Source: Rhynchobatus australiae
Taxonomy: Eukaryota
NCBI GenBank assembly: GCA_034780895.1
Contig: JAUZTB010000072.1
Span: 13,539,816-13,603,815 of the forward strand
Direction: 5' to 3'
Length of the DNA stretch: 64,000 bases
Shown piece after piece: positions 4,801 through 57,385 of this stretch. Numbering within the stretch: position 1 is the stretch's first letter; the number at the start of each line of letters is the position of its first letter. The position numbers were made by a program, and so were the translations under genes. The notes under the pieces were generated by a model that made no database searches, was not told the origin of the DNA, and saw only the letters and a list, made by a program, of their open reading frames with translations.

Positions 4801-5559
4801 TCTGTACATTGTTACATGGTACTAGACAAATTCATGATCTCAATGTTGGCCTTCAATGTAGCTTAAAATTATCTATTTAATCTCATTTGTGATAAAGAGT
4901 TCAACAAAAATAGTTCACATTTTTGCAGTAAATCATTGTTATTCATTTGGACCTTGAATAAACAAAAGCATTCCCAAGGCTCCAAGTGGGACCAATTAGA
5001 TGTGCGTACAATTCCAGACACTAGAATTTCACTTAAATGATCTATGACTGATGTCTATATCAAATGATGAGTCAATTTTTGACATATCACATTTTTTTTA
5101 ATATCAGCTCCAGGATCAAACACAGAATTCACTACAAGTTACATTTAAAAGTCAAGAAATTATACCCTTATGGTTGTCTATAGTGTTGTCACTTTGTCAA
5201 TAATTAAATCAAACAACAGATACATTTACTACTAAAGCTATTACGTTAAAAATGATAAGCAAAAAATTAAAACAGAAAATGTTTTAAAAAATACTCAGCG
5301 GGTCAAGCATCGTGTGAGTGTGTGTGGGGGGGGGGGATGTGGAAGAGTTAGCATTTCAGATTGATACCCTTTGATTGAAAAACGTCAGTTAGGGTATCTG
5401 CAGCATCTGCAGTTTTGCTTTCCAAATGCAAAAGAAAATACTTCCTCATTCTGAACAGACCATCCCCTCGCAGTTCACAACAGCATCTTGCGACTTCCTC
5501 CCTCCTATCTTTCCTGCCATCCCTTCTAAACCACTGGACTGCCAGAATCACCTCACTCC

Positions 5560-6370
5560 AACACACTCCCCTCCTGCCAGCGGCCAAACTCTTCCCAGGG
5601 CGCAGCTCCTGCAATCTGAAGCGGGGACCTCGGCTGCACCGCGACTTGTGGCCGAGCTGTCACTGCCTTCTGTCGCACGGCCCGCCGACCCTACCTGTAG
5701 CCTCGGTTCGTGGTTCTCGGCGGTATTCTGTACACGTGAACCTCCGGCTTCACACACAGGACCGACTCGTAGTCGCTCTCCGCCATCTTACTGCCCACCG
5801 ACTACCGATGGATCCAATTCCGACGCACCCAACGATCAGAAGGCATCATGGGATATTGGAGGAGGAGCCTTGGGGCGGGCCCCGCGGCATCACGGGATAT
5901 TGAAGGACATGGAGGGAGGGGATGCCGCCATCCACAGAAGGTCTCCGCGTCATCACTTTACATCTGGGCAGACGTCACCATCACGGGGATTGTGGTGCAG
6001 GCACCGCCCATTGAAGTCCCCGCGTCGTAGCGCAGGAGATGTTAACGGGAGCGCGGTGCGGCATCACGGGATAGCGGAGGACCGCCAGCTGATGGCGGCC
6101 TTTTCTGTGAGGGGTGCTCCGGAAGATAGAAATTATGAGGGCTGGAGAATATTGTCGTGGTGGAACTCGACAAGATGGGACAACTGCAGGTAGCGAAAGA
6201 GGTCGTAGCTAGGGACGAGGTAGGTTGATGAAGAGGTTTGTGGGGCTGCCAGTCAGACCACAACGTCCAACAGGACGGTGCAGGAGAACGGCGACATCGC
6301 CATCTCCTCGCTGCAAAACACAAGGACGGAAAAAACAGTGGACCCTCTCGCCTTTGGCTATCGCTCCCTT
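5560..6370. promoter_or_regulatory. CpG island / NECAP2 promoter with four ZNF143(SBS)-like motifs, a GC box, a CRE-like site and a YY1-like motif over the ATG
   Basis: CpG-dense against an AT-rich background; (GG)CATCA(T/C)GGG repeats at 5842, 5886, 5979 and 6060; GGGGCGGG ~5872; GACGTCA 5971; AAGATGGCG on the minus strand at the start codon. Confidence 0.75.
5695..5786 (-). CDS. NECAP2: NECAP2 (adaptin ear-binding coat-associated protein 2) coding exon 1; later exons not identified (left of window or in a gap)
   Basis: Minus strand reads [30 protein letters not shown](R), the NECAP N-terminal PHear-domain start; 92 nt ending at donor AG|GTAGGG; in a CpG island. NECAP2 rather than NECAP1 is favoured by the VHVYRIPPR motif and adjacency to SZRD1 as in human. 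Confidence 0.92.
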
Positions 6371-15189: not shown

Positions 15190-16264
15190 TCCCTTTAAAA
15201 TTTTCATTTATTTCTGTCCTTCTCTCTTCTTCCTCTTCATAAAACTGGGGAGGCTGTCAGATAGAACACCTCTGAAAACCTGCCCAGTTTCTGACAATAT
15301 GACTGCTCTGCACAGAACCATAATGGGAGCAGCATTAACTATAAGCATGGCCTTTGCCAAAACATCCTCTTAAAAAAGAGATTTTCTACTACTGCAAGTT
15401 ATACCTATCCTGCAGGTTATATCAAAAACCAACACGCACAAAGCATGGCTGGTGAATTTGAGCATAAGGCAGTGCTGGAATAAGATCACATGACTACAAC
15501 GTTATGCAGTTAACACCTTAAGTGCTACCCTAATGGGCCATATTTTAATCTCACCATCATAAGAGTTTTTGATTTAAAACTAAATCCTGGAATTGAGATG
15601 CTGCAGTTAACCACTTTCAGATGTGAGATATAGTAACATTCATGGCCACTATTAGAGCCGCTCTCTTTTCTCACTCCCCCCCCTCTGCGACCAGTTTTCC
15701 GTTAACCAACGGACTTGTGCTCCTACTATTGAGGGAGGACAAGAATCTGACAGGAATTGGCTGCGCACCAGGCCACCGACACAGCAGTTGTGTTCCATAG
15801 TGCATCTCATGGTTGCTGTGCCAAACAGCCCAAGCCTGTTGTCCACAATCCTTTCGTGGATCATCTTATGTTCTTGNNNNNNNNNNNNNNNNNNNNNNNN
15901 NNNNNNNNNNNNNNNNNNNNNNNNNNNNNNNATAATTTTAAAATGGATGCATTTGATGGATTTTTGACATACATTGCTTCGCAAGGTAATTAGCCTTGTG
16001 CAACTATCCTGCAGTAATGGATTAGATGAAAAGAAACCAAAACAATCCTGTGAAGTGTATGATGAGAGAAAACAGCACCCATCACTAATACATAGTCAAA
16101 TTCTTTCCTGAAATTAAAAGATAAACTATTGAACATTCTTAAACAGTATTATTGCTGGAGCAAATTTCTGATTAGAAATGGCACACAATATATTCTTGGC
16201 CAGTCTGATTGCAAGAAACCTCCCCTTCATGGTTTCCTTGGAGAGCTCACAGCAGTGTGCCAAC

Positions 16265-16338
16265 CACAGTGGGCGGAGCAGGGGTCACAGTGCGCAAGGA
16301 GAAAGGTCACAGTGGGCGGAGCAAGGGGGATCACAGTG
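16265..16338 (-). promoter_or_regulatory. Cluster of four miR-128/miR-27 seed-match sites in the SZRD1 3'UTR
   Basis: Plus-strand CACAGTG at 16265 and TCACAGTG at 16285, 16307 and 16331 = mRNA CACUGUG(A), 110-180 nt past the stop. Confidence 0.75.
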
Positions 16339-16446
16339 CAAGAAAAGCAGATCAGGTCCTCTGCTTGAGTCCGTTTTCTCTGTCCAACACTGCACGCTCA
16401 GTCATGGAGAGTTCTGTTTTATAAAGTGCGCTCTCTGGCGCACGTT

Positions 16447-16549
16447 TTATCTGCGTTGTTTGAAGCCTTGTGTACCATCAGGACCCAGGGGTTGTCGAAT
16501 TACACTGCTCTGTTGCCTGTTCTCCTCCAGTTGGGTGATCCTGGTTGGC
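16447..16549 (-). CDS. SZRD1: SZRD1 coding exon 4 (SUZ-C, stop)
   Basis: Acceptor [47 protein letters not shown]. Confidence 0.95.
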
Positions 16550-19500: not shown

Positions 19501-22500
19501 TCTACTCAAGAGCTTTATTAAGAAACATGGCTAGCCTTACCACCCATCCATCAGTAGATCTTGCCAACTAACTGACTATAAACAGGCTTTCTCCCCCTTC
19601 CTTCTTGCTTATTTTTGGCATTGGAAATTATTCCCAATGATCCTCTAGTAAACCTGTTAAGACCAATTCCTTCCCGAGGGTGAATAGACACACAATATGC
19701 TCAGACCAAAAGATAATAATAAAAGTACAAAATTTTGGGGGAATTCTGAAACAAGATATTGAACAAACTGATGCCTCTACTCAATACAGCAAATATCTTC
19801 AATACTTGGCTCATCGATATAAAGACACAGCTCCTCCTGGTCTTGTGGAAATTGCAGACTTCTGCAGAAAGAGCAAGTGGTGGCTGACAGGTCATGTGAG
19901 TGGGTAGTTTGGAGGTGGTCTGCTCATTCTGCCACTTAGAGAGTTTCTCTGTGTAGTCTTTATGAATGGCCTTGAATGTCATCCCGAATACTCCTCCTCC
20001 AGTATTAAACAGTAATGGGAGAGAGATTCCCCAGAGTCAGTGGGGATGTTGTGAGCAACTTCTTGAACCTTCTGACTTCCTCGTAATTTCTAGAACAACT
20101 GTTTCAGGAGTCGGGTGCCAAGCAAACAAATAATGTGGCCTGCCCAACATAACCAACTCTGTAACTATGACCTCAACACTGGGGGTATTGGCCCAGGAGA
20201 GAACAATAACAATGGTTTGCTAATCCTCCCTGTGATTTTGCCAAAACAGCATTGGTGGTATCTTTCCAGTGCCCTAAGATGACTGCTGCAAGTACTCCAG
20301 GTCTCAGAAACCTGTTATAGGAGTTGTAAATTTGTAAAGAGAACCCTCTTCACTGCAGGCCTCATCTCAGGTAATCACTTGCATGAGATAAAATTGAAGA
20401 ATTATGAATACCATAATGAAAATCAAGCTCAATTTGAGAATCAGTTACTACAAGATCATAAACACAGAACTTTGTGGAGTTTAAAACAAAAATCACATGC
20501 TGAAGGGAGCTCCAAATGCCTTGTGTTTACCTGTCAGGGTTGGCTTTATCCTCCTCTTCAGGACTCGCACTCCCAAGGATCCTTTTTCGTGCCTCTGCAT
20601 ATTCAGCTTCTCTCTGAGCCAGTGATTTGACTTGTGGCAGAGGCCGTGTAGCAGAGTGTGGTGTATTTACCACCCCATTACTTGTCGGTCTCTTCAGAAT
20701 GCGGATTGGTGGGGTGCAGGGTGTTGGGTGGAGGTCATCCTGTATGACGATGGGAACTTTAGGCGCCTGTTTCGATTTCCTGTTTAAATATGAAGAACAT
20801 TTAGATTTATCACATCCATTCAAATACTTTATAAAATGCTAAAGAGAATATAGCAGAACTGAATGTAACAGAACCACAGGCTTGAGCTATGCTGAGAAAT
20901 AAAGGCCACGGTAACACAGGAAATGTGTGATGTAAAAAACTGGTTGATACCACCAGCAGCCTATGTACTCATCCTTTTTAAAAGGCTAGGAGGATAATAG
21001 AGGGCAAAAGGTAAAAAAAAACAAAATCATTTCCATTGGCTCAGTTGGGTCAATAGTTAACAAAAGCACGGATGAGAGTTTCAGAATCAGATAAGCTGAG
21101 GCACAGATTCAGAAGGTCCCCATTCTGTGTCAAGCCTCCCAATTTGTATCCACATTCCAAAATCCAAGAGAACTGCATGGACCATCTCCAACCTCATTCC
21201 AGATATTCCATTCATGAATATTGACAAAATACAAATCCATCTATCCAGTTCTATACAACTTCAATAGCTTGTGTATCACAATATCCCACATGTACATATA
21301 TTCCAACTCTAACATGACAAAACTTCAAGGCTTTTTGCAAGAGATTAGAAATAAACAATACAAGGACTATCTAAAAAGAAAATTAGATTTAGGGGGAAAT
21401 CATCAGGCCATGGCAACTGAAATCATCCAGCCATTATCTGATGGAAGAGCAAATAAATTGCTAACGATCAAGGTATTAGAAATGAGGGGTGTAAATTCAC
21501 AAGGGTCATAGGCTGTCAAGGATGGGAGAGAGAGCAAACTGGGTCATGGACCGATTAAGGACGAGGGTGCAACGTGTCAATGAGCACAGGTGCAATGGAT
21601 AAAAGGGACTTGGTTTGAGTTGGGACAAGATTTTGGGCAAATTCAGAAAGTAGAAATGGAGGCTGGCTAAAAACAATTTTATTTAACAGGGACATAGAAG
21701 AGTTTTAGAATCAAATAAGCAGAGGCTGAGGTAAAACAGCAACATTAAAAAGATGGTAATATGCAGTCTTAATGAAAACCTTGTTACATCTACTCTAAAG
21801 CTCATCTTGGGGTCATTTGATACTAAACTTGTAATCTGGTTCAATTTGAGAAAGTGTCCAGGAAATCAAGTTTACTATAATGATGAAGGATGATGACTTG
21901 AGTTACTACCTCAAGTTAGAAGAAATTTCTGTTCACCCAGAGTTGACAATTTGAAAATAATTGGAAGAGTTAGTTGAGATGCTGACAAGCAGAGCAGTTA
22001 TTATTTAATTTCAGCTTTTGGGCATTTATACATTTTGTAATGACTTCATCTGTCATTTATAACAATAGATTCCTGTCCCCATGTCCAGAAGGTAGTCCAC
22101 TGTCCAGTAGAAAATAAGTAATATTAGTAAATAAGGTACAGTAACATGATGTGAACACAAATCTGAGGATACTGTTGATCCGATGATTGAGAGAGAGATT
22201 TGGATTTGGCTGCCAGATTGTTTGGTGGAAGTGGAAGGATGAGTGGAAAGGTTTGTTTAGATGAAGGGTCTTGACCTGAAATGTCAACTGTCCATTTCCC
22301 TCCATAGGTGCTGCCTAAGCTGCCGAGTTCCTCCAGCACTTTGTGTGTTCACATCATGTTACTCTATCTTATTTACTAATATATTATTTTCTATTGGACA
22401 GTGGACTACCTTCTGGACATAGGGGCAGGAATCTATTGTTATTAGACCATTCTCCACACAGAGGCTCGATTTCCAACAAGTGCAATTAAAGGATAATGAT

Positions 22501-25500
22501 CAGCTCTCAGCACATTTTTTGATTTTGGGTTTTTTTTGAACAAATTCCAGTTTTTAAACCACTGACATTCCCAGTTGAGTACAGCCCTAATATTAGAACC
22601 ACTTCCTTTTTCCAATCATCATGACTCATAGTATTGATAATGTTTCACATAATGCTTGAAAGGGACCCTTCCTCCATAAATAATACTCAAGATGCATGCA
22701 TCATTACCTTTCCAATTCACTGAAAATATTTTTTCCAAGCTAATTTATACGCGCTGATGGTTACCAATACATAATGAGCTGTTCCCATATACATTCCTTA
22801 CACCTAAACATGCAATCTGTTCTCAGTAGGCAAGAAATTTCTTCCAGTGCACTCTTTCGTTGCCTGAGCAAAAGTGTTTAAAGTCTCAAACACCACACAG
22901 AGCTACAAGGAAGGTGGTCTACAAGGAAGCAATAATCCCTGCTCACCTTTAAACTTTAGAGACATTCCCTATTGCAGACATTTCAGAGAACTGAAGCACT
23001 ACAAAGTGGTCTAGCAAAATCCTCCAAATCCACTGACAAGTGAACCAACAACAGCATCCTCTCCCAGGTCAACATCCCCAGGACAGGCTCCAATTACACT
23101 CCACTAGCTCTGATGCACAAGACTCCCAAAATAGCTATGCTATTCTGATTCAAGAATGTTTCCAAAGCTTCCTTGAAAATATCCACACCACATGACCACT
23201 CATTCAGAATGGCAGAGGGCCTCACATCTTTCATCAGCAGTATGCAGAAAAATGGGAAATGAGTACCATCTCCCATTCAATCTACCTGCTTGCCTGATCA
23301 AGTACTTTCAGCTCCAGCATTGTCAGCAAATCTCACTTTGGTTTCATCAGCTACATCAGAACCCGGGAGACTTCAGTGGAAACAAGTCATCCTCAACCCC
23401 AAGGGGCTGCCTAAGAAGATGACTGCAGAAGCTGGCCCAGATTATGCAAGAACTCTGTTTTCTACTCTGCAGAGAACTCTTCACATCAGAAAAGCAGGTC
23501 TGACACCAATGCGGCAGTAGCAAAATATTTACTCAGAGTCCATGCAAGTCTTCAAATCCTAGAAGGTGCAGCATAAACTCATGCCAGATACAACACTGTC
23601 ACAAAATGGGCAAATTGATACTTGCCTCATTGTCAAGATGGGTGTGGCCAAAGACTATTTGTGAGGAATTTTATTTTCCCTCCCTACCCACTGACCTTTA
23701 TTCGTGGAAGAGCATGCATCAGCATAATTCAGACGAAGCAACAACTTGCATCCAATTTACATAAAACAATACAAAAAAATCCAGTGGAAGTTCCCAATTT
23801 ACTAAAAAGAATTTCCATCTGATTTTTCCCTTACCGCCTCCTCTCTTGCACATAGTAAGAAGGGCTGGGGTTTACCACCAAATCCTGGCAACTATTCTTT
23901 AGCTTTGAGGTTCTAAAATTTCAACAACAAAATCCATTGCACCCAAGTCCAATCGAATCATCACTGTCAGTCCAGACATTTCAACAGAAGTGATAAAGAG
24001 GTACGGCAATACCCAAGGCCTACACAGAATTGGATCATCAACAGCCTCTCATAACAACTCTCTGGTGCAAACAATCAGCTCATTCATCCCTAATGTATCT
24101 GGAAAATGCAAGTCCAAGCAGATGGGCTCCACCTGCAGCAGGTCTGCTTAGCAGATCAGGTTCAAGACAATCCCATCCTATAAAGAATAATCAGCATGGA
24201 TTTCAGAGGAGAACATCATGTTCAACCAGATGGACTGAAGTTTTTTTTAAAAAAAACTAAAAGAGGCGATGAGATAATGCTTCATCTGAACGCCATGCCC
24301 ACATTCGATGCACCTCAGGATCAATAATCCAATATGTGGCCACTGGCAAGAATATTTACTCTCATCTGCCAACCAGCAACAATTCTTATGGAAACTCAAC
24401 TTGCAGGAATTGCAAGTGGATACCCAAGTCTGAAAACCCCATCTGGAAACCAGTACTCAAAAATAATTGCCTTGCCAAAATGTTTCCCTTCAACAAATCT
24501 GCTGCTCTCCTTTCTGGCAAATATCAACACTTCGGCTCTATTGGGTTTATGAACAGTGATGAGAAGAACGAACAGGCTATGTCACTGAAGACCAGCATAG
24601 CAAGTCAGATTTTACCCACTGTGTATTCCATGTAATTTCCAGCAATCAGCAAACTTTAATTTTTCAATTCTCCCCACGCGGAGAAAGAATAAAGGAGGCA
24701 AATCAAAAGTTTACAATATTGATAAAAATGAAAAAGCAAAGCCAAAATGAATTTACATCCTAAATCACTTTACAGCCAAAGTACTTTTAAATAGTCAAGT
24801 TATAATTCAAGAAATATGGATGCCAATTGTGAACAGCACATTTGCACAAAATACAATGTAATATGACCTATAATTAATATTACAAAAGCAAAGATAAACA
24901 TTGGTCAGGACACCAAGGAGAACAACTCTTCTTCGAAAGTAGTGTGTTAGAATTGTTTCCTGTTCACTCAAGGGCAGGGGTTCTCACCTTAATATTTCAT
25001 CCAAACAAAAACCTGTACCTTCAACACAGCAGCAGTTCATCATTGCTGCACTGGTGCATCAACCAAGATTTTTATGCTTAGGTCTCTAGAACAGTACTTG
25101 AACTTACAGCCTTCCCACTCAGATGATAATGCTATCAAATGAACCATGATTCACACCCAAAGATTATTAAATTAATGAACAGCAATGGCAAAACATTCTA
25201 AGAGGAGCAGTTTTACTGAAAAACAAATTATCAGAGCAACCCTCAGTGAGACAGCAGAGGCAAAAAGCTTTACATTTTTGGGGAAAACTATGTTAGATAA
25301 GCTTTAAAAAGCAGAAGAGATTGTTTGTACCAGCTAAGAATAAGTGACTGGGGCAGAAGCTGGTACTTTTATTAGTTTTACAGAATGAGGCAATTACCAC
25401 TCAAACCATCAGAGGGAGCCAATAAATAATTATTAGCAATTTTTCAGAAATAGTTCTTACTTTTCCTTCTGCTGGATCTTTAGTTTTGCTTCTAGCCGTC

Positions 25501-28500
25501 GGTCAATTTCCTGCAAGAAAGGAATCACATGCAAGTATGAACACGGGTGCTTGATAGAACAATAACGAGTTGAACAACCAGGTCCAAACAGATGGACACA
25601 AAAGCCCATTCAAAATTAAAATTAGGATTTGCTGCATTTGAAAATACATTAAACGGTCCAGCAAGTAAGATGCGAAAACAGAGTCAAGGAAATAGGAATA
25701 GGAAATTGTGAGTTTAAGCTGCCAATCGTTGTAATCAAAATTGACACAGCCTACATCCAAGGTGGGGTATATACGTGACAGTTTGATAGAAGCATTTTGA
25801 TTTACACTCATTTTAAGGTAGAAAATGAGAGGTATTGGGCCAGCAATAACACTGCTTTGATTATTTGCTTCTTGGATTGTTAAAATACTGTAGACCTCCT
25901 GAATGTTACAGGAAATCTTTACCAGTTTTCTCTGCAGGTGTATGCAACTTCACATGGGACTAATTGTAATCATGAATGGAGCTTATGGAGAAGGTGTAAT
26001 CAGACTCCGAAGGTCCTCACTTTACTCAGTTTCAGTTTAAGTCAGGCCCTCACACTTGGGCTTCAGTCCAACAGCAACTCTGGAATTGGTATAATTGTTC
26101 CCTTAAATCAACCATTCCCAGACATGACAAAGACCAGGTGGTCACTAGTTTCAGCATACTGATGTTTACCTAAAAAAATGCTTTTCTAAACTTCTGCATT
26201 AACTTTTTACAAAATAATTCATTGATACGTCAACCACCCATCAGACTAGAGCTGCTGCATTACACATCAGTTATTCAAGCACTGAGCAGGGTGGAGGTTT
26301 GAAGAGTCATTCTGGGTCTTTGCTTGGTCAATATCCACATGTACATTTTTAAAATATTTATGTGGGGTATAGAGGAAAAACTAAACATTACTAAACCTCA
26401 GGTACTGGATCCAAACAGAAACTAGTCATTTCTCACTCACCTGTTATTAATTAGTCTCTCCTGATAATAAACAAACATCACTTAAAATCTTTTCAATACA
26501 TTATTTTGTAATTTTTTTTTACTACACTTCATTCATTGGTTTGAATACAGTTCCATCAGAATGGTTTCTAGGATGAGGAACTATAGAGAAGGCTGAGGAG
26601 ACATCTTAAAGTATATAAAACGATGGGGGGCTCTGGACAGAGTTGATGATGGAAGGTGGCTCCAATTGGTGGAGTTGAGAATTAGAGCTCACAGCTACAA
26701 AAATAAGGGGAAAGCCTTTTTTCCCCTTTAAACAGCAAGTAGTCTGGAATCAGGAATGCTCTACCAGCAGACGTGATGGAGGCAGGTTCCATTGTGGCAG
26801 AATTGGATGCACGTATGGCAAAAAGTTTAAGGCTGAAGAGAAGCAGCCATCTGGTGAAATTAGCAAGTTACTCTGTAAATGACAGCACAGACCCAGTGGG
26901 CAAAATGGCCTCATGCTATAAGCATTGCATAATTCTGTATGTCCCCTATGGCACGCCCATCTCTCACCCTCCCCCCCCCCCCCCCAAATGACTACATGGC
27001 AAGTTTATCTGATTTATTTCTACAATTTATCCCACTGGTTTTAAGCTCTGCCACATCTTTCACACCAAATTACTTTTCATGTAACATGCAGCTCCCAAGG
27101 CAAATTCCAAACATTGTACATTCGATACACTTCTGAACTTGAGCAGATAATGCAGCAGATACTGCAGTACAGCAACAGAGGAAGCTGCTTTGTTGGAGAT
27201 TCAGTTCTTTCAGATGAAGCATTAAACCAAGGCCACATCTCACGGGTTTGACGGTTATTTAATATCCCATGGCACTAACTGGAGCAGGAAAGTTCTGGTA
27301 TTTTGTTTAACATTATGAAACATCACCAAAATAAATCAATTAGCCATTCAGTCAATTGCATTTGCAGGATTTTACTGCCTTCAACAAGTCACTGCACTTG
27401 AGAAAAGTAATTGTTTATAAAGCATGCCAAGTCTTTCAATTCAATAAAATATGTCCCTTTGTATCCGGAAATAAAATATTTCTTCTTTAACAATTCTTTT
27501 ACATGGCTGGACAGGATAACAGAAAAACTGTGGCCAAGTGGTTGAGTTATTTCTTTCTCTTTTTTTTATTGCAACATTTCAATTCTATTTTTATGGAAAC
27601 CATTATGTTCAGTGCCCCTTGAAAATTCAATATCCATGAGGAAATGAGGAATGTTTAGTAATGAAAAGGCAAAACTGTAGTCACTGGAACTCAAAACAAA
27701 ATGCTGGAATCACTGACAAAGTCAACATCATCTCTGGAAAGAACAGATGACGCATAGGTGTGAATGTCTGAAACTTTAAATTGCCACATTTACTTATTAG
27801 TCCACTAAATATTTTCAATTTTATTATATGTGTTTTATAACCAGCTAGCACCTTCCTCAGACATTGTTGCTTTGAAACCTGGATAGGGCAAGAAAACACC
27901 ATTTGTCGATCTGTCCACCCCTTCCCAAGAACCCCAATAGGACTATTGCAAATACAGAAATAAGGCTATAACTGGATGCCTTACAAACATGAGGAAAAAT
28001 ATATAATTTTTTTTACTTTCAGCCCATTGGATTGCCCACCAGAAAATCATGATGCCACAATGCTTGCACTATGGTTATCGCTTTTAAAATTCAAATGGAG
28101 CAGTCTCAAGAGTGCACTTAATCTGTTTTATTGATTTCAAAGCTGGTAACTTTGTTGAGATGAAGTTGTGTAGGTTGCGGGGAGATCACTGAAGGTGAGC
28201 ACACACTACCATTTACACCAAACTGTGCAACTGGGTGCCATGATTACTGAAGACCTGTGAGCTCAGTAGTCACATCTTAGCCGAACCCTTCTGAATGTGC
28301 TTTATCTGTGAAATTTCTCTTGAATGACCCAGCGCCTTGAATAATCGGTGTGACAGGATATGTTATAACATACTGTCATACTCAATATATTCTCTTTTAG
28401 AGACTCAGAATCCTGGAATTTATTTTCTTGCCTTTATATGCAAGCTGCCTCACATGCTTTTGTCATTCACTCAAGCTCTTCAGTTTAGAAGGTACACTGC

Positions 28501-29849
28501 TGCTGGCAGTATTAAACAGATCTACTGCAATATCTTCTGCACATGAACAATGACACATCTAATGGAGGGCACTGTACTACAAAACAATTCTACCTGTCCT
28601 TGAAAGTACAACACACCAAGGATGAGTTCAAAATTCTCAAATAATTGAAATCACTACTCTGAATACTATGTTCTCTCTATCTTGATTTTAAGTTCTGTGC
28701 AACTCCTCAGCCATAAAATATCAAACTTTTCTATATGCCACTGGATCAGAGTGGTCACAATTTAAAATTTAAAGCGGTTATTTTTTTCAATTTAGCTGCC
28801 TTTCTACCAGCTTGGAAATATTGCTTTTTCTCATTTTAATGTAAATGTGTCAGTTAATACTTAAACCCTTTTCCACTGCTGGTAATTGCTAAGAACAACT
28901 GCACTGGAAAATTTTAAAGGTTGTAAACTATGCAACTCATTTTTGTTTACAAAAGGTAGCAATGTCAAAATAGATAATTCCATAAGATCCATTTCTAAAT
29001 CATCACAAACATTGCTGTTTTTGTGCAACTTGCATTGAAAGTTGAATCATTGCCTACTCCTTCTGAGGAAGTTAAAGGTACTGTTTATCTACTTCCCATT
29101 GAAAAAACAGAATTCTCATTTGAGTTAAAAAAAACTTTTAATCATTACATAACACGTTGCATGGAAAAGGTTCATTTATTTCAGAATCCTAGCAAGTGTC
29201 GATTTCCTATCAATTGAATTCCACAGGTCTCTCAGTGTCAAAATACCCAAAACCATTGCTGTCCAATAGCATTACTATACCATAATTTGATTTGAGATGT
29301 TCGGCTTTCTATTTCACATATCGTAATTGGGAAAAATGCATTACCATTATCCTCTTATCCCCAAGTAGAAGTGGGGGGAAATCTATCTGCCCACAGCTGG
29401 GAGCTGGCAGCAAAGTGCGCGCCTCCAACTGCAGTGGATACATTACCTCCATCGGTCTGGAATCCGCATCACTCGCTTCCAATGCCTTTTCTGGGCATGT
29501 TACGGTATTTAGTCTCCCTCCCATTACCAACACTCGCCCTCTGTTGAGAAGGTGGCGACTTCCAGCTTTTTCGGCCTGGGTCCAGGCCCTGCCTGTCCTC
29601 AGTGCTGTACCCTCCCACACACGCCGCTGCCCCCACACTTGTGGCCGACACTCACCGAGACCCTTTAACTGTTGCACACACACTGCTCCTGCCCAACTCC
29701 CCAGCCTTGAGAATCCCACTTAACCGCCTCAGCAGGCTAAGAGTCCCCAAGTGTGGGGAAGCCGCGGTCTCTCCACGGGTTCATGCCGTGCTCCTTACCC
29801 CACTGTCGGCTGCTTCCTCCCAATTATCCGCGATTTCCTCATCTTCCAT
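16447..29849 (-). CDS. SZRD1: SZRD1 (SUZ RNA-binding domain containing 1), complete CDS join(29849..29799, 25510..25461, 20779..20531, 16549..16447), 150 aa
   Basis: Exons 51+50+249+103 = 453 nt, in frame, all GT-AG; protein [33 protein letters not shown]...IRILKRP...[21 protein letters not shown] (SUZ)...[18 protein letters not shown] (SUZ-C). Confidence 0.97.
17110..17820 (+). mobile_element. CR1 LINE 3' fragment
   Basis: [50 protein letters not shown], and a CR1-type tail CTGTGCTGTATGA. Confidence 0.85.
20531..20779 (-). CDS. SZRD1: SZRD1 coding exon 3 (SUZ domain)
   Basis: Within ORF 20527..20823; [15 protein letters not shown]...EEEDKANPD(R); AG/GT boundaries keep the phase. Confidence 0.96.
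22059..22442. repeat. ~100-bp inverted repeat (22059-22159 / 22344-22442) enclosing a Penelope-terminus fragment
   Basis: Arms reverse-complement at roughly 90% identity by eye. Confidence 0.9.
24760..25150 (-). mobile_element. tRNA-derived Deu-SINE-like element (SacSINE1-like)
   Basis: tRNA-like head on the minus strand near 25150; body resembles copies at 49730-50070(-), 51350-51710(+) and 56740-56990(-). Confidence 0.55.
25461..25510 (-). CDS. SZRD1: SZRD1 coding exon 2
   Basis: Acceptor [26 protein letters not shown](K), donor GTAAGA. Confidence 0.95.
26560..26940 (+). mobile_element. Old CR1 3' fragment
   Basis: AGAAGGCTGAGGAGACATCTT...GTGATGGAGGCAGGTTCCATT...GTGGGCAAAATGGCCT CR1-type motifs. 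Confidence 0.6.
29799..29849 (-). CDS. SZRD1: SZRD1 coding exon 1
   Basis: ATG at 29849, [17 protein letters not shown], donor G|GTAAGG. Confidence 0.95.
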
Positions 29850-29990: not shown

Positions 29991-30142
29991 CGCATGCGCA
30001 GTGCCGCCGGTGAGGGTGGGTTGTGCCGTCTGGGGAGGGGAGAAGGGTGTCCCGGCTCAGGCGCATGCGCGGTGCCGTCAGCGAGGGCGGGTTGCGTCGT
30101 GCGGGGAGGGAAGAAGGGTGTCCCGGCTCAGGCGCATGCGCG
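29991..30142. repeat. 71-bp tandem duplication (~2.1 copies), each unit starting with an NRF1 palindrome
   Basis: Units 29991-30061 and 30062-30132 share CGCATGCGC...GGGGAGGG(G/A)AGAAGGGTGTCCCGGCTCAGG. Confidence 0.9.
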
Positions 30143-38620: not shown

Positions 38621-38763
38621 TATGCCTTTTCTATGTTATATGGAGCAACTACACCCAATAGTCATGATGATCATACAGTTCAGGATCTTATGCCGTACAA
38701 TAGGACCTTGTGATTTCAGCTGATCTGTTTTCTTGTGCTCTCCCCTCCTCCTTTACCACAGGG

Positions 38764-57385
<18,622 letters not shown>

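What the first reader, a model, noticed from the sequence alone, without database searches (positions are those of the whole stretch)
16265..16338. Phased array of four miR-128 (and miR-27) sites in the SZRD1 3'UTR
Seen: the mRNA strand has three CACUGUGA 8mers (16285, 16307, 16331) and one CACUGUG 7mer (16265), spaced 20-24 nt apart, 110-180 nt past the stop, partly from a ~43-nt duplication. Known: CACUGUGA is the miR-128-3p 8mer and contains the miR-27 site ACUGUGA; Szrd1 is a reported miR-128 target in mouse neurons; sites this close can act cooperatively. Inference: the miR-128-SZRD1 link may date to the jawed-vertebrate ancestor, and the site array may have been built or extended by tandem duplication.
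Basis: partly seen in the sequence, partly recalled or inferred. Interest (0 to 1): 0.7.

Follow-up and report, generated by a model that had tools for sequence, protein, structure and literature searches.

The report
Ancient miR-128 site block in SZRD1
The untranslated tail of the SZRD1 gene in this shark-or-ray genome carries four evenly spaced matches to the brain microRNA miR-128, and the same four sit at the same places in a bird-type copy of the gene, so a control link already known from mammals likely dates back to early jawed vertebrates, although repression in the fish is predicted and not tested.

Summary
Observation confirmed: three miR-128 8mers and one 7mer-m8, 109-182 nt past the stop of an elasmobranch SZRD1, spaced 24/22/21 nt. 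Spacing alone proves little: the triple pattern matches 54 times in this genome, mostly in minisatellites. The decisive result is orthology. A bird-type SZRD1 locus has four 8mers at UTR 109/134/156/179 (here 109/133/155/176), with 31 of 32 site bases identical against 9 of 36 fourfold-degenerate coding positions. Two teleost copies keep two sites each. The genome has two mir-128 hairpins. RNA reads of a close relative cover sites 3-4 on the sense strand. Flanking bases favour miR-128 over miR-27. The link is known: SZRD1 is the first row of a human TargetScan list, predicted as conserved to frog, and its mouse UTR represses a reporter. New here: the four-site block predates the cartilaginous/bony split, so any duplication is ancient, not lineage-specific. 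Repression and cooperativity in this fish are untested; deep conservation rests on one tetrapod locus. The scan's notes held no SZRD1 finding. New member of a known kind.

The parts
16331..16338 (-). Site 1, miR-128-3p 8mer (UTR nt 109); its 5' flank extends it into 7mer-m8 sites for miR-148/152 and miR-130/301
   Evidence: identical in bird-type locus L003 (8 of 8); mammalian frameshifted isoforms end in register with it
16307..16314 (-). Site 2, miR-128-3p 8mer (UTR nt 133)
   Evidence: 8 of 8 identical in L003
16285..16292 (-). Site 3, miR-128-3p 8mer (UTR nt 155)
   Evidence: 8 of 8 identical in L003; covered by sense RNA reads of a close relative with no difference listed
16265..16271 (-). 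Site 4, miR-128-3p 7mer-m8 (UTR nt 176); an 8mer in L003
   Evidence: 7 of 8 identical in L003; covered by sense RNA reads
16315..16330 (-). Linker 1, C-rich pyrimidine tract, unusually well conserved
   Evidence: 14 of 16 columns identical to L003; 0 of 5000 composition shuffles reach the score
16293..16306 (-). Linker 2
   Evidence: 8 of 14 identical to L003; shuffle p 0.017
16272..16284 (-). Linker 3, similar to linker 1 (trace of an old two-site duplication)
   Evidence: 10 of 15 identical to L003 (shuffle p 0.13); to linker 1 of the same UTR p 0.003 here but p 0.17 in L003
16339..16376 (-). Conserved block upstream of site 1 (UTR nt 71-108); part of it can pair with linker 1 and close a hairpin round site 1 (predicted, weak in this species)
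   Evidence: 26 of 38 identical to L003; fold z -3.5 in L003, -0.7 here
16447..16549 (-). SZRD1 last coding exon part (SUZ-C motif) with stop TAA at 16449-16447
20531..20779 (-). SZRD1 coding exon 3 (SUZ domain)
   Evidence: 90-94% identical to shark and ray SZRD1 proteins
25461..25510 (-). SZRD1 coding exon 2
   Evidence: matches residues 18-33 of elasmobranch SZRD1
29799..29849 (-). SZRD1 coding exon 1 (ATG at 29849)
   Evidence: the four exons add up to 150 codons plus stop, the length of elasmobranch SZRD1
15935..16301 (-). 3' UTR segment shown transcribed in a close relative (sites 3-4 and 330 nt beyond)
   Evidence: 51 reads of run X22, depth 9-24 in all 29 bins, all pairs with first mate on +

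Best explanation
The stretch is a block of four miR-128 seed matches in the first 182 nt of the SZRD1 3' UTR that is conserved site by site between an elasmobranch and a bird-type gene, and it likely works as a multi-site brake on which miR-128-loaded Argonautes are predicted to bind side by side and lower SZRD1 output where miR-128 is abundant, chiefly in neurons. Shown: the sites, their place in the UTR, their spacing of one microRNA length, their conservation, mir-128 genes in the genome, transcription through sites 3-4 in a relative. From papers: repression of the mouse UTR by miR-128 in a reporter and high miR-128 in shark brain. Inferred: presence of all four sites in the last common ancestor of cartilaginous and bony vertebrates, origin by doubling of a two-site unit before that split, reduction to two sites in teleost copies, cooperative binding, and repression in this fish. 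Site 1 is also predicted to accept miR-148/152 and miR-130/301, which would give a weaker input in other tissues.
For: L003 (exon 3 is 100% identical over 77 aa to three bird proteins) has 8mers at UTR 109/134/156/179 against 109/133/155/176 here. Site columns 31 of 32 identical; fourfold-degenerate coding positions 9 of 36; UTR nt 1-70 35 of 75 (Fisher p 4e-10 and 2e-7). Teleost loci L004 and L005 have two sites each (14 and 67 of 10000 shuffles reach this), and only two overlapping 6-mers of the site occur at least twice in all four UTRs. Four mammalian isoforms (of 11 proteins with unusual ends among the 120 listed) read into the UTR and stop in register with site 1 (the stop codon's letters are inferred). 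Two mir-128 hairpins score 85.8 and 77.3 bits. The base pairing to miR-128 position 8 is kept in 8 of 8 sites of the two four-site UTRs. Spacing 21-25 nt lies in the 15-26 nt cooperative range of PMC3849160 (passages). Mouse UTR: 4 TargetScan sites, reporter repressed (PMC10605364). miR-128 is among the top 100 small RNAs of epaulette shark brain (PMC6048248).
Against: No repression, binding or cooperativity was measured for this UTR. Deep four-site conservation rests on one tetrapod locus; mammalian sites 2-4 were not seen as sequence. Of the three contig runs laid, two gave nothing and one gave a 56-nt piece outside the array, so there is no test across distant sharks, rays or chimaeras. The RNA run is from a very close relative and of unknown tissue; sites 1-2 were not covered by the lay. 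Szrd1 mRNA did not change in miR-128-2-overexpressing mouse lymphoid progenitors (PMC4951230). The mouse reporter passage mentions no seed mutants. Predicted accessibility of the seeds is average (24th-52nd percentile here). Teleost sites do not align by position or flank. Linker 1 and the upstream block are conserved beyond what seed pairing needs.
Confidence: 0.87

Rival explanations
1. The block is kept mainly for miR-27 (with miR-148/152 and miR-130/301 at site 1), as a broadly expressed brake, and miR-128 only shares the sites.
For: Four mir-27 loci pass the Rfam cut-off (one of the four did not give the usual mature sequence). Three of four sites here and four of four in L003 are miR-27 7mer-m8 sites; predicted duplexes at sites 2-4 here are 1-2 kcal/mol stronger for miR-27 than for miR-128. 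mir-148 and mir-130 genes are present and match site 1 in both species.
Against: The A that would make a miR-27 8mer follows 0 of 8 sites, whereas the miR-128 position-8 match is kept in 8 of 8 and its position-1 A in 7 of 8. The one substitution (site 4 here) breaks the miR-27 seed but leaves a miR-128 7mer-m8. Published tests are for miR-128.
Confidence: 0.06
2. The main constraint is an RNA structure or a protein-binding element (a hairpin from the upstream block and linker 1 round site 1, or C-rich tracts), and the seed matches are secondary.
For: Linker 1 is 14 of 16 and the upstream block 26 of 38 identical. In L003 the two pair in a 12-bp stem, z -3.5 for a window chosen after looking; the same pairing appears in the fold of UTR 70-135 here.
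Against: Here z is -0.7, and the fold of UTR 1-215 prefers another local hairpin. By eye the differences between the two species weaken the stem and are not compensatory; two sequences cannot show covariation. Sites are better conserved than linkers (31 of 32 against 32 of 45, p 0.005). Teleosts keep the seed matches and not the flanks.
Confidence: 0.05
3. It is a neutral, decayed minisatellite that happens to carry the seed match.
For: TRF calls it a tandem repeat; 54 matches to the triple pattern in the genome against 35 for the reversed control, most of them repeats.
Against: One-to-one conservation with a bird-type gene while synonymous positions are saturated; seeds kept better than linkers; the two teleost copies carry the sites in unrelated flanks.
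Confidence: 0.02

Closest known systems
miR-128-3p targeting of mammalian SZRD1 (C1orf144, D4Ertd22e). PMC10605364 (passages, section 3.3, Tables 2 and 5); PMC3936914 (section with Table 4); PMC3019150 (Table 5 passage); PMC5964322 (supplement rows); PMC12478519 (one passage citing the mouse neuron work)
   Same: Same gene, same microRNA, same seed, and the same number of sites as TargetScan gives for mouse (4, context score -0.98). SZRD1 is the first data row of the human TargetScan 7.1 list in PMC5964322; listed as a conserved target in nine tetrapods down to frog; down 1.62-fold on miR-128 overexpression in SH-SY5Y.
   Different: The papers seen stop at tetrapods and do not describe the array's spacing, its two-site repeat structure or its presence in cartilaginous fish. 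No test exists for a shark or ray UTR.
Deeply conserved 'neighborhood' and 'seed overlap' co-target sites (Kitai et al., PMC9650897, passages; supplements searched, no SZRD1 row) and cooperative-range clusters (Rinck et al., PMC3849160, passages)
   Same: Sites 15-26 nt apart; site 1 overlaps miR-128 with miR-148 and miR-130/301 seeds, the combination that paper describes; very deep conservation.
   Different: That survey ends at coelacanth and leaves out fish; this case reaches cartilaginous fish and has four same-microRNA sites in one 75-nt block.
ARPP21/R3HDM1-miR-128 host-gene circuit and miR-128 control of NMD factors (Rehfeld et al., PMC5964322; SUZ proteins and UPF1, PMC10470013; passages)
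   Same: miR-128 is made from introns of SUZ-domain genes and targets UPF1 and CASC3; SZRD1 is the fourth human SUZ protein, binds UPF1, and is both an ARPP21 iCLIP target and a predicted miR-128 target. One mir-128 copy here lies 36.5 kb downstream of a SUZ exon and an R3H exon on the same strand.
   Different: The passages read do not discuss SZRD1 as part of that circuit; the host of the second mir-128 copy here was not found.

Membership tests
Canonical multi-site miRNA target (miR-128-3p) | Perfect 8mer or 7mer-m8 seed match on the sense strand of a 3' UTR, clear of the stop codon | tested here: met
   three 8mers and one 7mer-m8 at UTR nt 109-182
Canonical multi-site miRNA target (miR-128-3p) | The microRNA with this seed is encoded in the genome | tested here: met
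   two RF00649 hairpins, 85.8 and 77.3 bits
Canonical multi-site miRNA target (miR-128-3p) | The sites are in the mRNA | tested here: inconclusive
   sense reads of a close relative cover sites 3-4 and beyond; sites 1-2 lie between these and the stop and are inferred; no RNA of this species, tissue unknown
Canonical multi-site miRNA target (miR-128-3p) | Seed matches conserved above background in orthologues | tested here: met
   31 of 32 site bases against 9 of 36 fourfold positions with L003; two sites in each of two teleost loci
Canonical multi-site miRNA target (miR-128-3p) | Seed-dependent repression of this UTR | not testable with these tools
   only the mouse orthologue has a reporter result in the papers read
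Cooperative-range site cluster | Sites 15-26 nt apart | tested here: met
   24/22/21 nt here, 25/22/23 nt in L003; range from PMC3849160
Cooperative-range site cluster | Repression greater than log-additive | not testable with these tools
   needs a mutant series
miR-27 target | Conserved miR-27 8mer or 7mer sites with signs of selection for miR-27 | tested here: inconclusive
   7mer-m8 in 7 of 8 sites, 8mer in 0 of 8
miRNA-degradation trigger or sponge site | Long conserved pairing to the microRNA 3' end | tested here: not met
   miR-128 duplexes -14 to -15 kcal/mol here with 3-5 scattered extra pairs; the longer pairing at L003 site 1 is not shared
Neutral minisatellite | Lineage-specific, whole unit homogenised, no selection on a sub-motif | tested here: not met
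   orthologous in a bird-type gene; seeds better kept than linkers

The most novel reading that the evidence does not exclude
Since early jawed vertebrates, miR-128, made from introns of the SUZ-protein genes ARPP21 and R3HDM1, has used a four-Argonaute cooperative switch to shut down the remaining small SUZ protein SZRD1 as neurons mature. This would be a microRNA-driven swap of SUZ proteins on UPF1 that retunes nonsense-mediated decay together with miR-128's known repression of UPF1 and CASC3, with a hairpin round site 1 setting which of four microRNA families gets access.
Probability: 0.18. Interest if true: 0.65.

Novelty: new member of a known kind. Interest (0 to 1): 0.38.

Why it matters
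It dates a specific microRNA-target pair, site by site, to before the split of cartilaginous and bony vertebrates (about 450 million years, recalled), deeper than the published surveys seen here reach. A natural block of four sites one microRNA length apart, kept with its spacing, is a ready substrate for testing whether Argonaute cooperativity matters in a real gene. It also points at SZRD1, a little-studied UPF1 partner, as a long-standing dose-controlled output of miR-128 in neurons. The link itself is not new.

Tried and rejected
No RNA holder was listed for this species. Contig runs X3 and X17 laid nothing and X19 only a 56-nt piece away from the array: no information on more distant elasmobranchs. 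A first family search used a wrong recalled accession (MIR167) and means nothing. No SZRD1 loci in viral or prokaryote collections; L006 is a distant SUZ protein without the array and was dropped (1 of 4 loci). Fish proteins with odd C-termini (27 printed of 120 listed) gave no read-through over the sites; a search with the mammalian read-through tail found only the 3 already known. No further miR-128 or miR-27 7mer or 8mer site in the next 3.7 kb downstream (15876-12130). Extended 3' pairing (degradation trigger, sponge) rejected. A conserved hairpin is not supported by folding energy in this species. Rfam finds nothing in the window. PMC4337614 is listed with six mentions of Szrd1 but the text served had none, and the primary mouse-neuron paper (PMC3932786) is not held, so that claim rests on a review passage. 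PMC8666723 is retracted and was not used (listing only). bioRxiv supplements were closed; TargetScan's own alignments could not be seen and probably show the tetrapod sites.

Full report
Observation. The minus strand carries CACTGTGA at 16331-16338, 16307-16314 and 16285-16292 and CACTGTG at 16265-16271. The gene upstream on that strand is SZRD1: coding exons 29849-29799, 25510-25461, 20779-20531 and 16549-16447 add up to 150 codons and a stop, the last exon is a SUZ-C motif, and exon 3 is 90-94% identical to six shark and ray proteins and at most 80% to the tetrapod ones listed. The sites start at UTR nt 109, 133, 155 and 176. Shuffles never give this (0 of 20000), but the same triple pattern matches 54 times in the genome, at about 28 places by my count, against 35 for the reversed control, and most matches look like minisatellites. 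Phasing alone therefore could not decide the matter.

The microRNA. A 17-base stretch of miR-128, taken from a primer in PMC4951230 (passage), occurs twice in the genome, and both places are mir-128 hairpins. One lies 36.5 kb downstream of a SUZ exon and an R3H exon on the same strand, as expected for an ARPP21 or R3HDM1 host; exons beyond the hairpin were not checked and no host was found for the second copy. The identical mature sequence is among the 100 most abundant small RNAs in epaulette shark brain (PMC6048248, section with Table 2). mir-27, mir-148 and mir-130 genes are present too.

Transcription. Raw RNA reads of a close relative (run X22, about 18% of the run read, 51 reads) cover 15935-16301 at depth 9-24 in 29 of 29 bins, all pairs with the first mate on the plus strand, which in most stranded libraries means minus-strand RNA. 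No difference is listed between 16033 and 16301. The transcript thus runs through sites 3 and 4 and at least 330 nt further; sites 1 and 2 lie between this and the stop and are inferred to be included. The tissue is unknown. The three contig runs laid gave nothing over the array.

Conservation. A scan of metagenome contigs with an alignment of 10 SZRD1 proteins returned 4 loci; three are vertebrate SZRD1 genes with their last exon and one is a distant SUZ protein. L003 matches three bird proteins at 100% over exon 3 and has four 8mers at UTR 109, 134, 156 and 179. In a global alignment the site columns are 8/8, 8/8, 8/8 and 7/8 identical, the linkers 14/16, 8/14 and 10/15, the 38 columns before site 1 26/38, UTR 1-70 35/75 and the columns after the array 16/32; fourfold-degenerate coding positions are identical at 9 of 36, which is chance level. 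Fisher tests give p 4e-10 for sites against fourfold positions and 0.005 for sites against linkers; columns of one gapped alignment are not independent, so these are guides. L003 degrades into poly-G after about UTR nt 215. The two teleost loci have two sites each, at UTR 237/265 and 287/321 (the last a 7mer-A1), in unrelated flanks; 14 and 67 of 10000 shuffles reach that count, and only two overlapping 6-mers of the site occur at least twice in all four UTRs. Four mammalian database isoforms (human, macaque, mouse lemur, elephant shrew) run out of frame into the UTR; their last residues line up with the translation of L003 just before site 1 and their stop falls on the site's last three bases. 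This supports site 1 in mammals indirectly, at about UTR nt 120. With cartilaginous fish as the outgroup to birds and teleosts, four sites is the likely ancestral state and two a teleost reduction or turnover.

Which microRNA. The base that pairs with miR-128 position 8 is kept in 8 of 8 sites of the two four-site UTRs and the position-1 A in 7 of 8. The A that would make a miR-27 8mer follows none of the 8, and the single substitution breaks the miR-27 seed while leaving a miR-128 7mer-m8. Predicted duplex energies are slightly better for miR-27 at sites 2-4, so it may share the sites. Site 1 is also a 7mer-m8 for miR-148/152 and for miR-130/301 in both species, with seeds read from this genome's hairpins, the overlap described in PMC9650897 (passages). 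There is no shared long 3' pairing, so this is no degradation trigger.

Duplication. Linker 1 resembles linker 3 here (p 0.003) and linker 3 here resembles linker 1 of L003 (p 0.001), but within L003 the likeness is not significant (p 0.17), and linker 2 resembles neither. Sites 1 and 3 share one kind of 5' flank and sites 2 and 4 another in both species. This fits doubling of a two-site unit before the two lineages split. It does not fit recent building in this lineage.

Unexplained. Linker 1 and the block before site 1 are better conserved than seed pairing requires. In L003 they pair into a 12-bp stem round site 1 (z -3.5, window chosen after looking); here the same pairing appears in a short window but with z -0.7, and a longer window folds otherwise. 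Predicted seed accessibility is average.

Mechanism. Most likely, miR-128-loaded Argonautes occupy up to four adjacent sites and repress SZRD1 mRNA by the ordinary route (deadenylation and translational repression, established knowledge). The 21-25 nt spacing is in the 15-26 nt range linked to cooperative repression (PMC3849160, passages). Cooperativity and repression in this fish are inferred.

What is known. Mouse Szrd1 has 4 TargetScan sites (context score -0.98) and its UTR nt 36-925 represses a reporter under miR-128 (PMC10605364). C1orf144 is listed as a conserved target in nine tetrapods including frog (PMC3936914), falls 1.62-fold on overexpression (PMC3019150), is the first data row of a human TargetScan 7.1 list and an ARPP21 iCLIP target (PMC5964322 supplements; that the list is ranked by score is my inference), and is named as a neuronal target in a review (PMC12478519). 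Against: no mRNA change in mouse lymphoid progenitors overexpressing miR-128-2 (PMC4951230). SZRD1 binds UPF1 through its SUZ domain and maintains UPF3B (PMC10470013, passages); miR-128 comes from SUZ-domain hosts and targets UPF1 and CASC3 (PMC5964322). A preprint on ARPP21 aggregates mentions SZRD1 but not miR-128. I found no paper on the array in cartilaginous fish or on SZRD1 as part of the host-gene circuit in searches (szrd1 + evolution + shark: 0 papers); the library lacks most subscription papers. PMC10899074 and PMC10059597 were seen as passages and add only the seed sequence and a reference.

Verdict. Real, conserved, and of a known kind. The new part is the age and the site-by-site persistence of a four-site, one-microRNA-length array. 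Interest 0.38; the bolder reading of a SUZ-protein swap on UPF1 gets probability 0.18.

Noticed in passing
window 29991-30142: A 71-nt unit present twice (87% alike) in the GC-rich promoter between SZRD1 and its head-to-head neighbour; each copy holds a GC-rich palindrome that resembles an NRF1 site (label recalled).
   Followed up: no
window 38704-55595 (+): The head-to-head neighbour of SZRD1 has BTB exons (38704-39048, 40733-41233) and several C2H2 zinc-finger exons: a ZBTB-type gene, not named here.
   Followed up: partly
window 16368-16376 (-) and L003 UTR nt 71-79: A 9-base block identical in both species about 30 nt before site 1; no function assigned.
   Followed up: partly
G000:C71:7371794-7371810 (L002): The second mir-128 copy differs by one base near the 3' end of the mature sequence and has no SUZ or R3H match on its contig; host gene unknown, possibly an assembly break.
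   Followed up: partly
L020:1501-1580: A fourth mir-27 family hit with a low score (54.6 bits) beside a mir-24; the usual mature sequence was not recovered from it. May be a diverged copy.
   Followed up: no
G000, 28 or so places listed: Many minisatellites in this genome carry repeated miR-128/miR-27 seed matches; any that are transcribed in brain could act as decoys, but none was checked.
   Followed up: no
proteins P0058, P0059, P0077, P0092: Mammalian SZRD1 isoforms that shift frame in the last exon and end at the first miR-128 site; probably annotation or minor splice products.
   Followed up: partly
window 13633 (-), also 15212, 15189 (-): Candidate poly(A) signals 2.8 kb and 1.2 kb past the stop; the true 3' end was not determined.
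   Followed up: no
window 47897-48023 and 48672-48794: Tandem repeats of 50 nt (100% alike, next to an assembly gap, possibly an artefact) and 34 nt within the zinc-finger gene.
   Followed up: no
window 5393-6193: A GC-richer stretch with long open frames and no Pfam match.
   Followed up: partly
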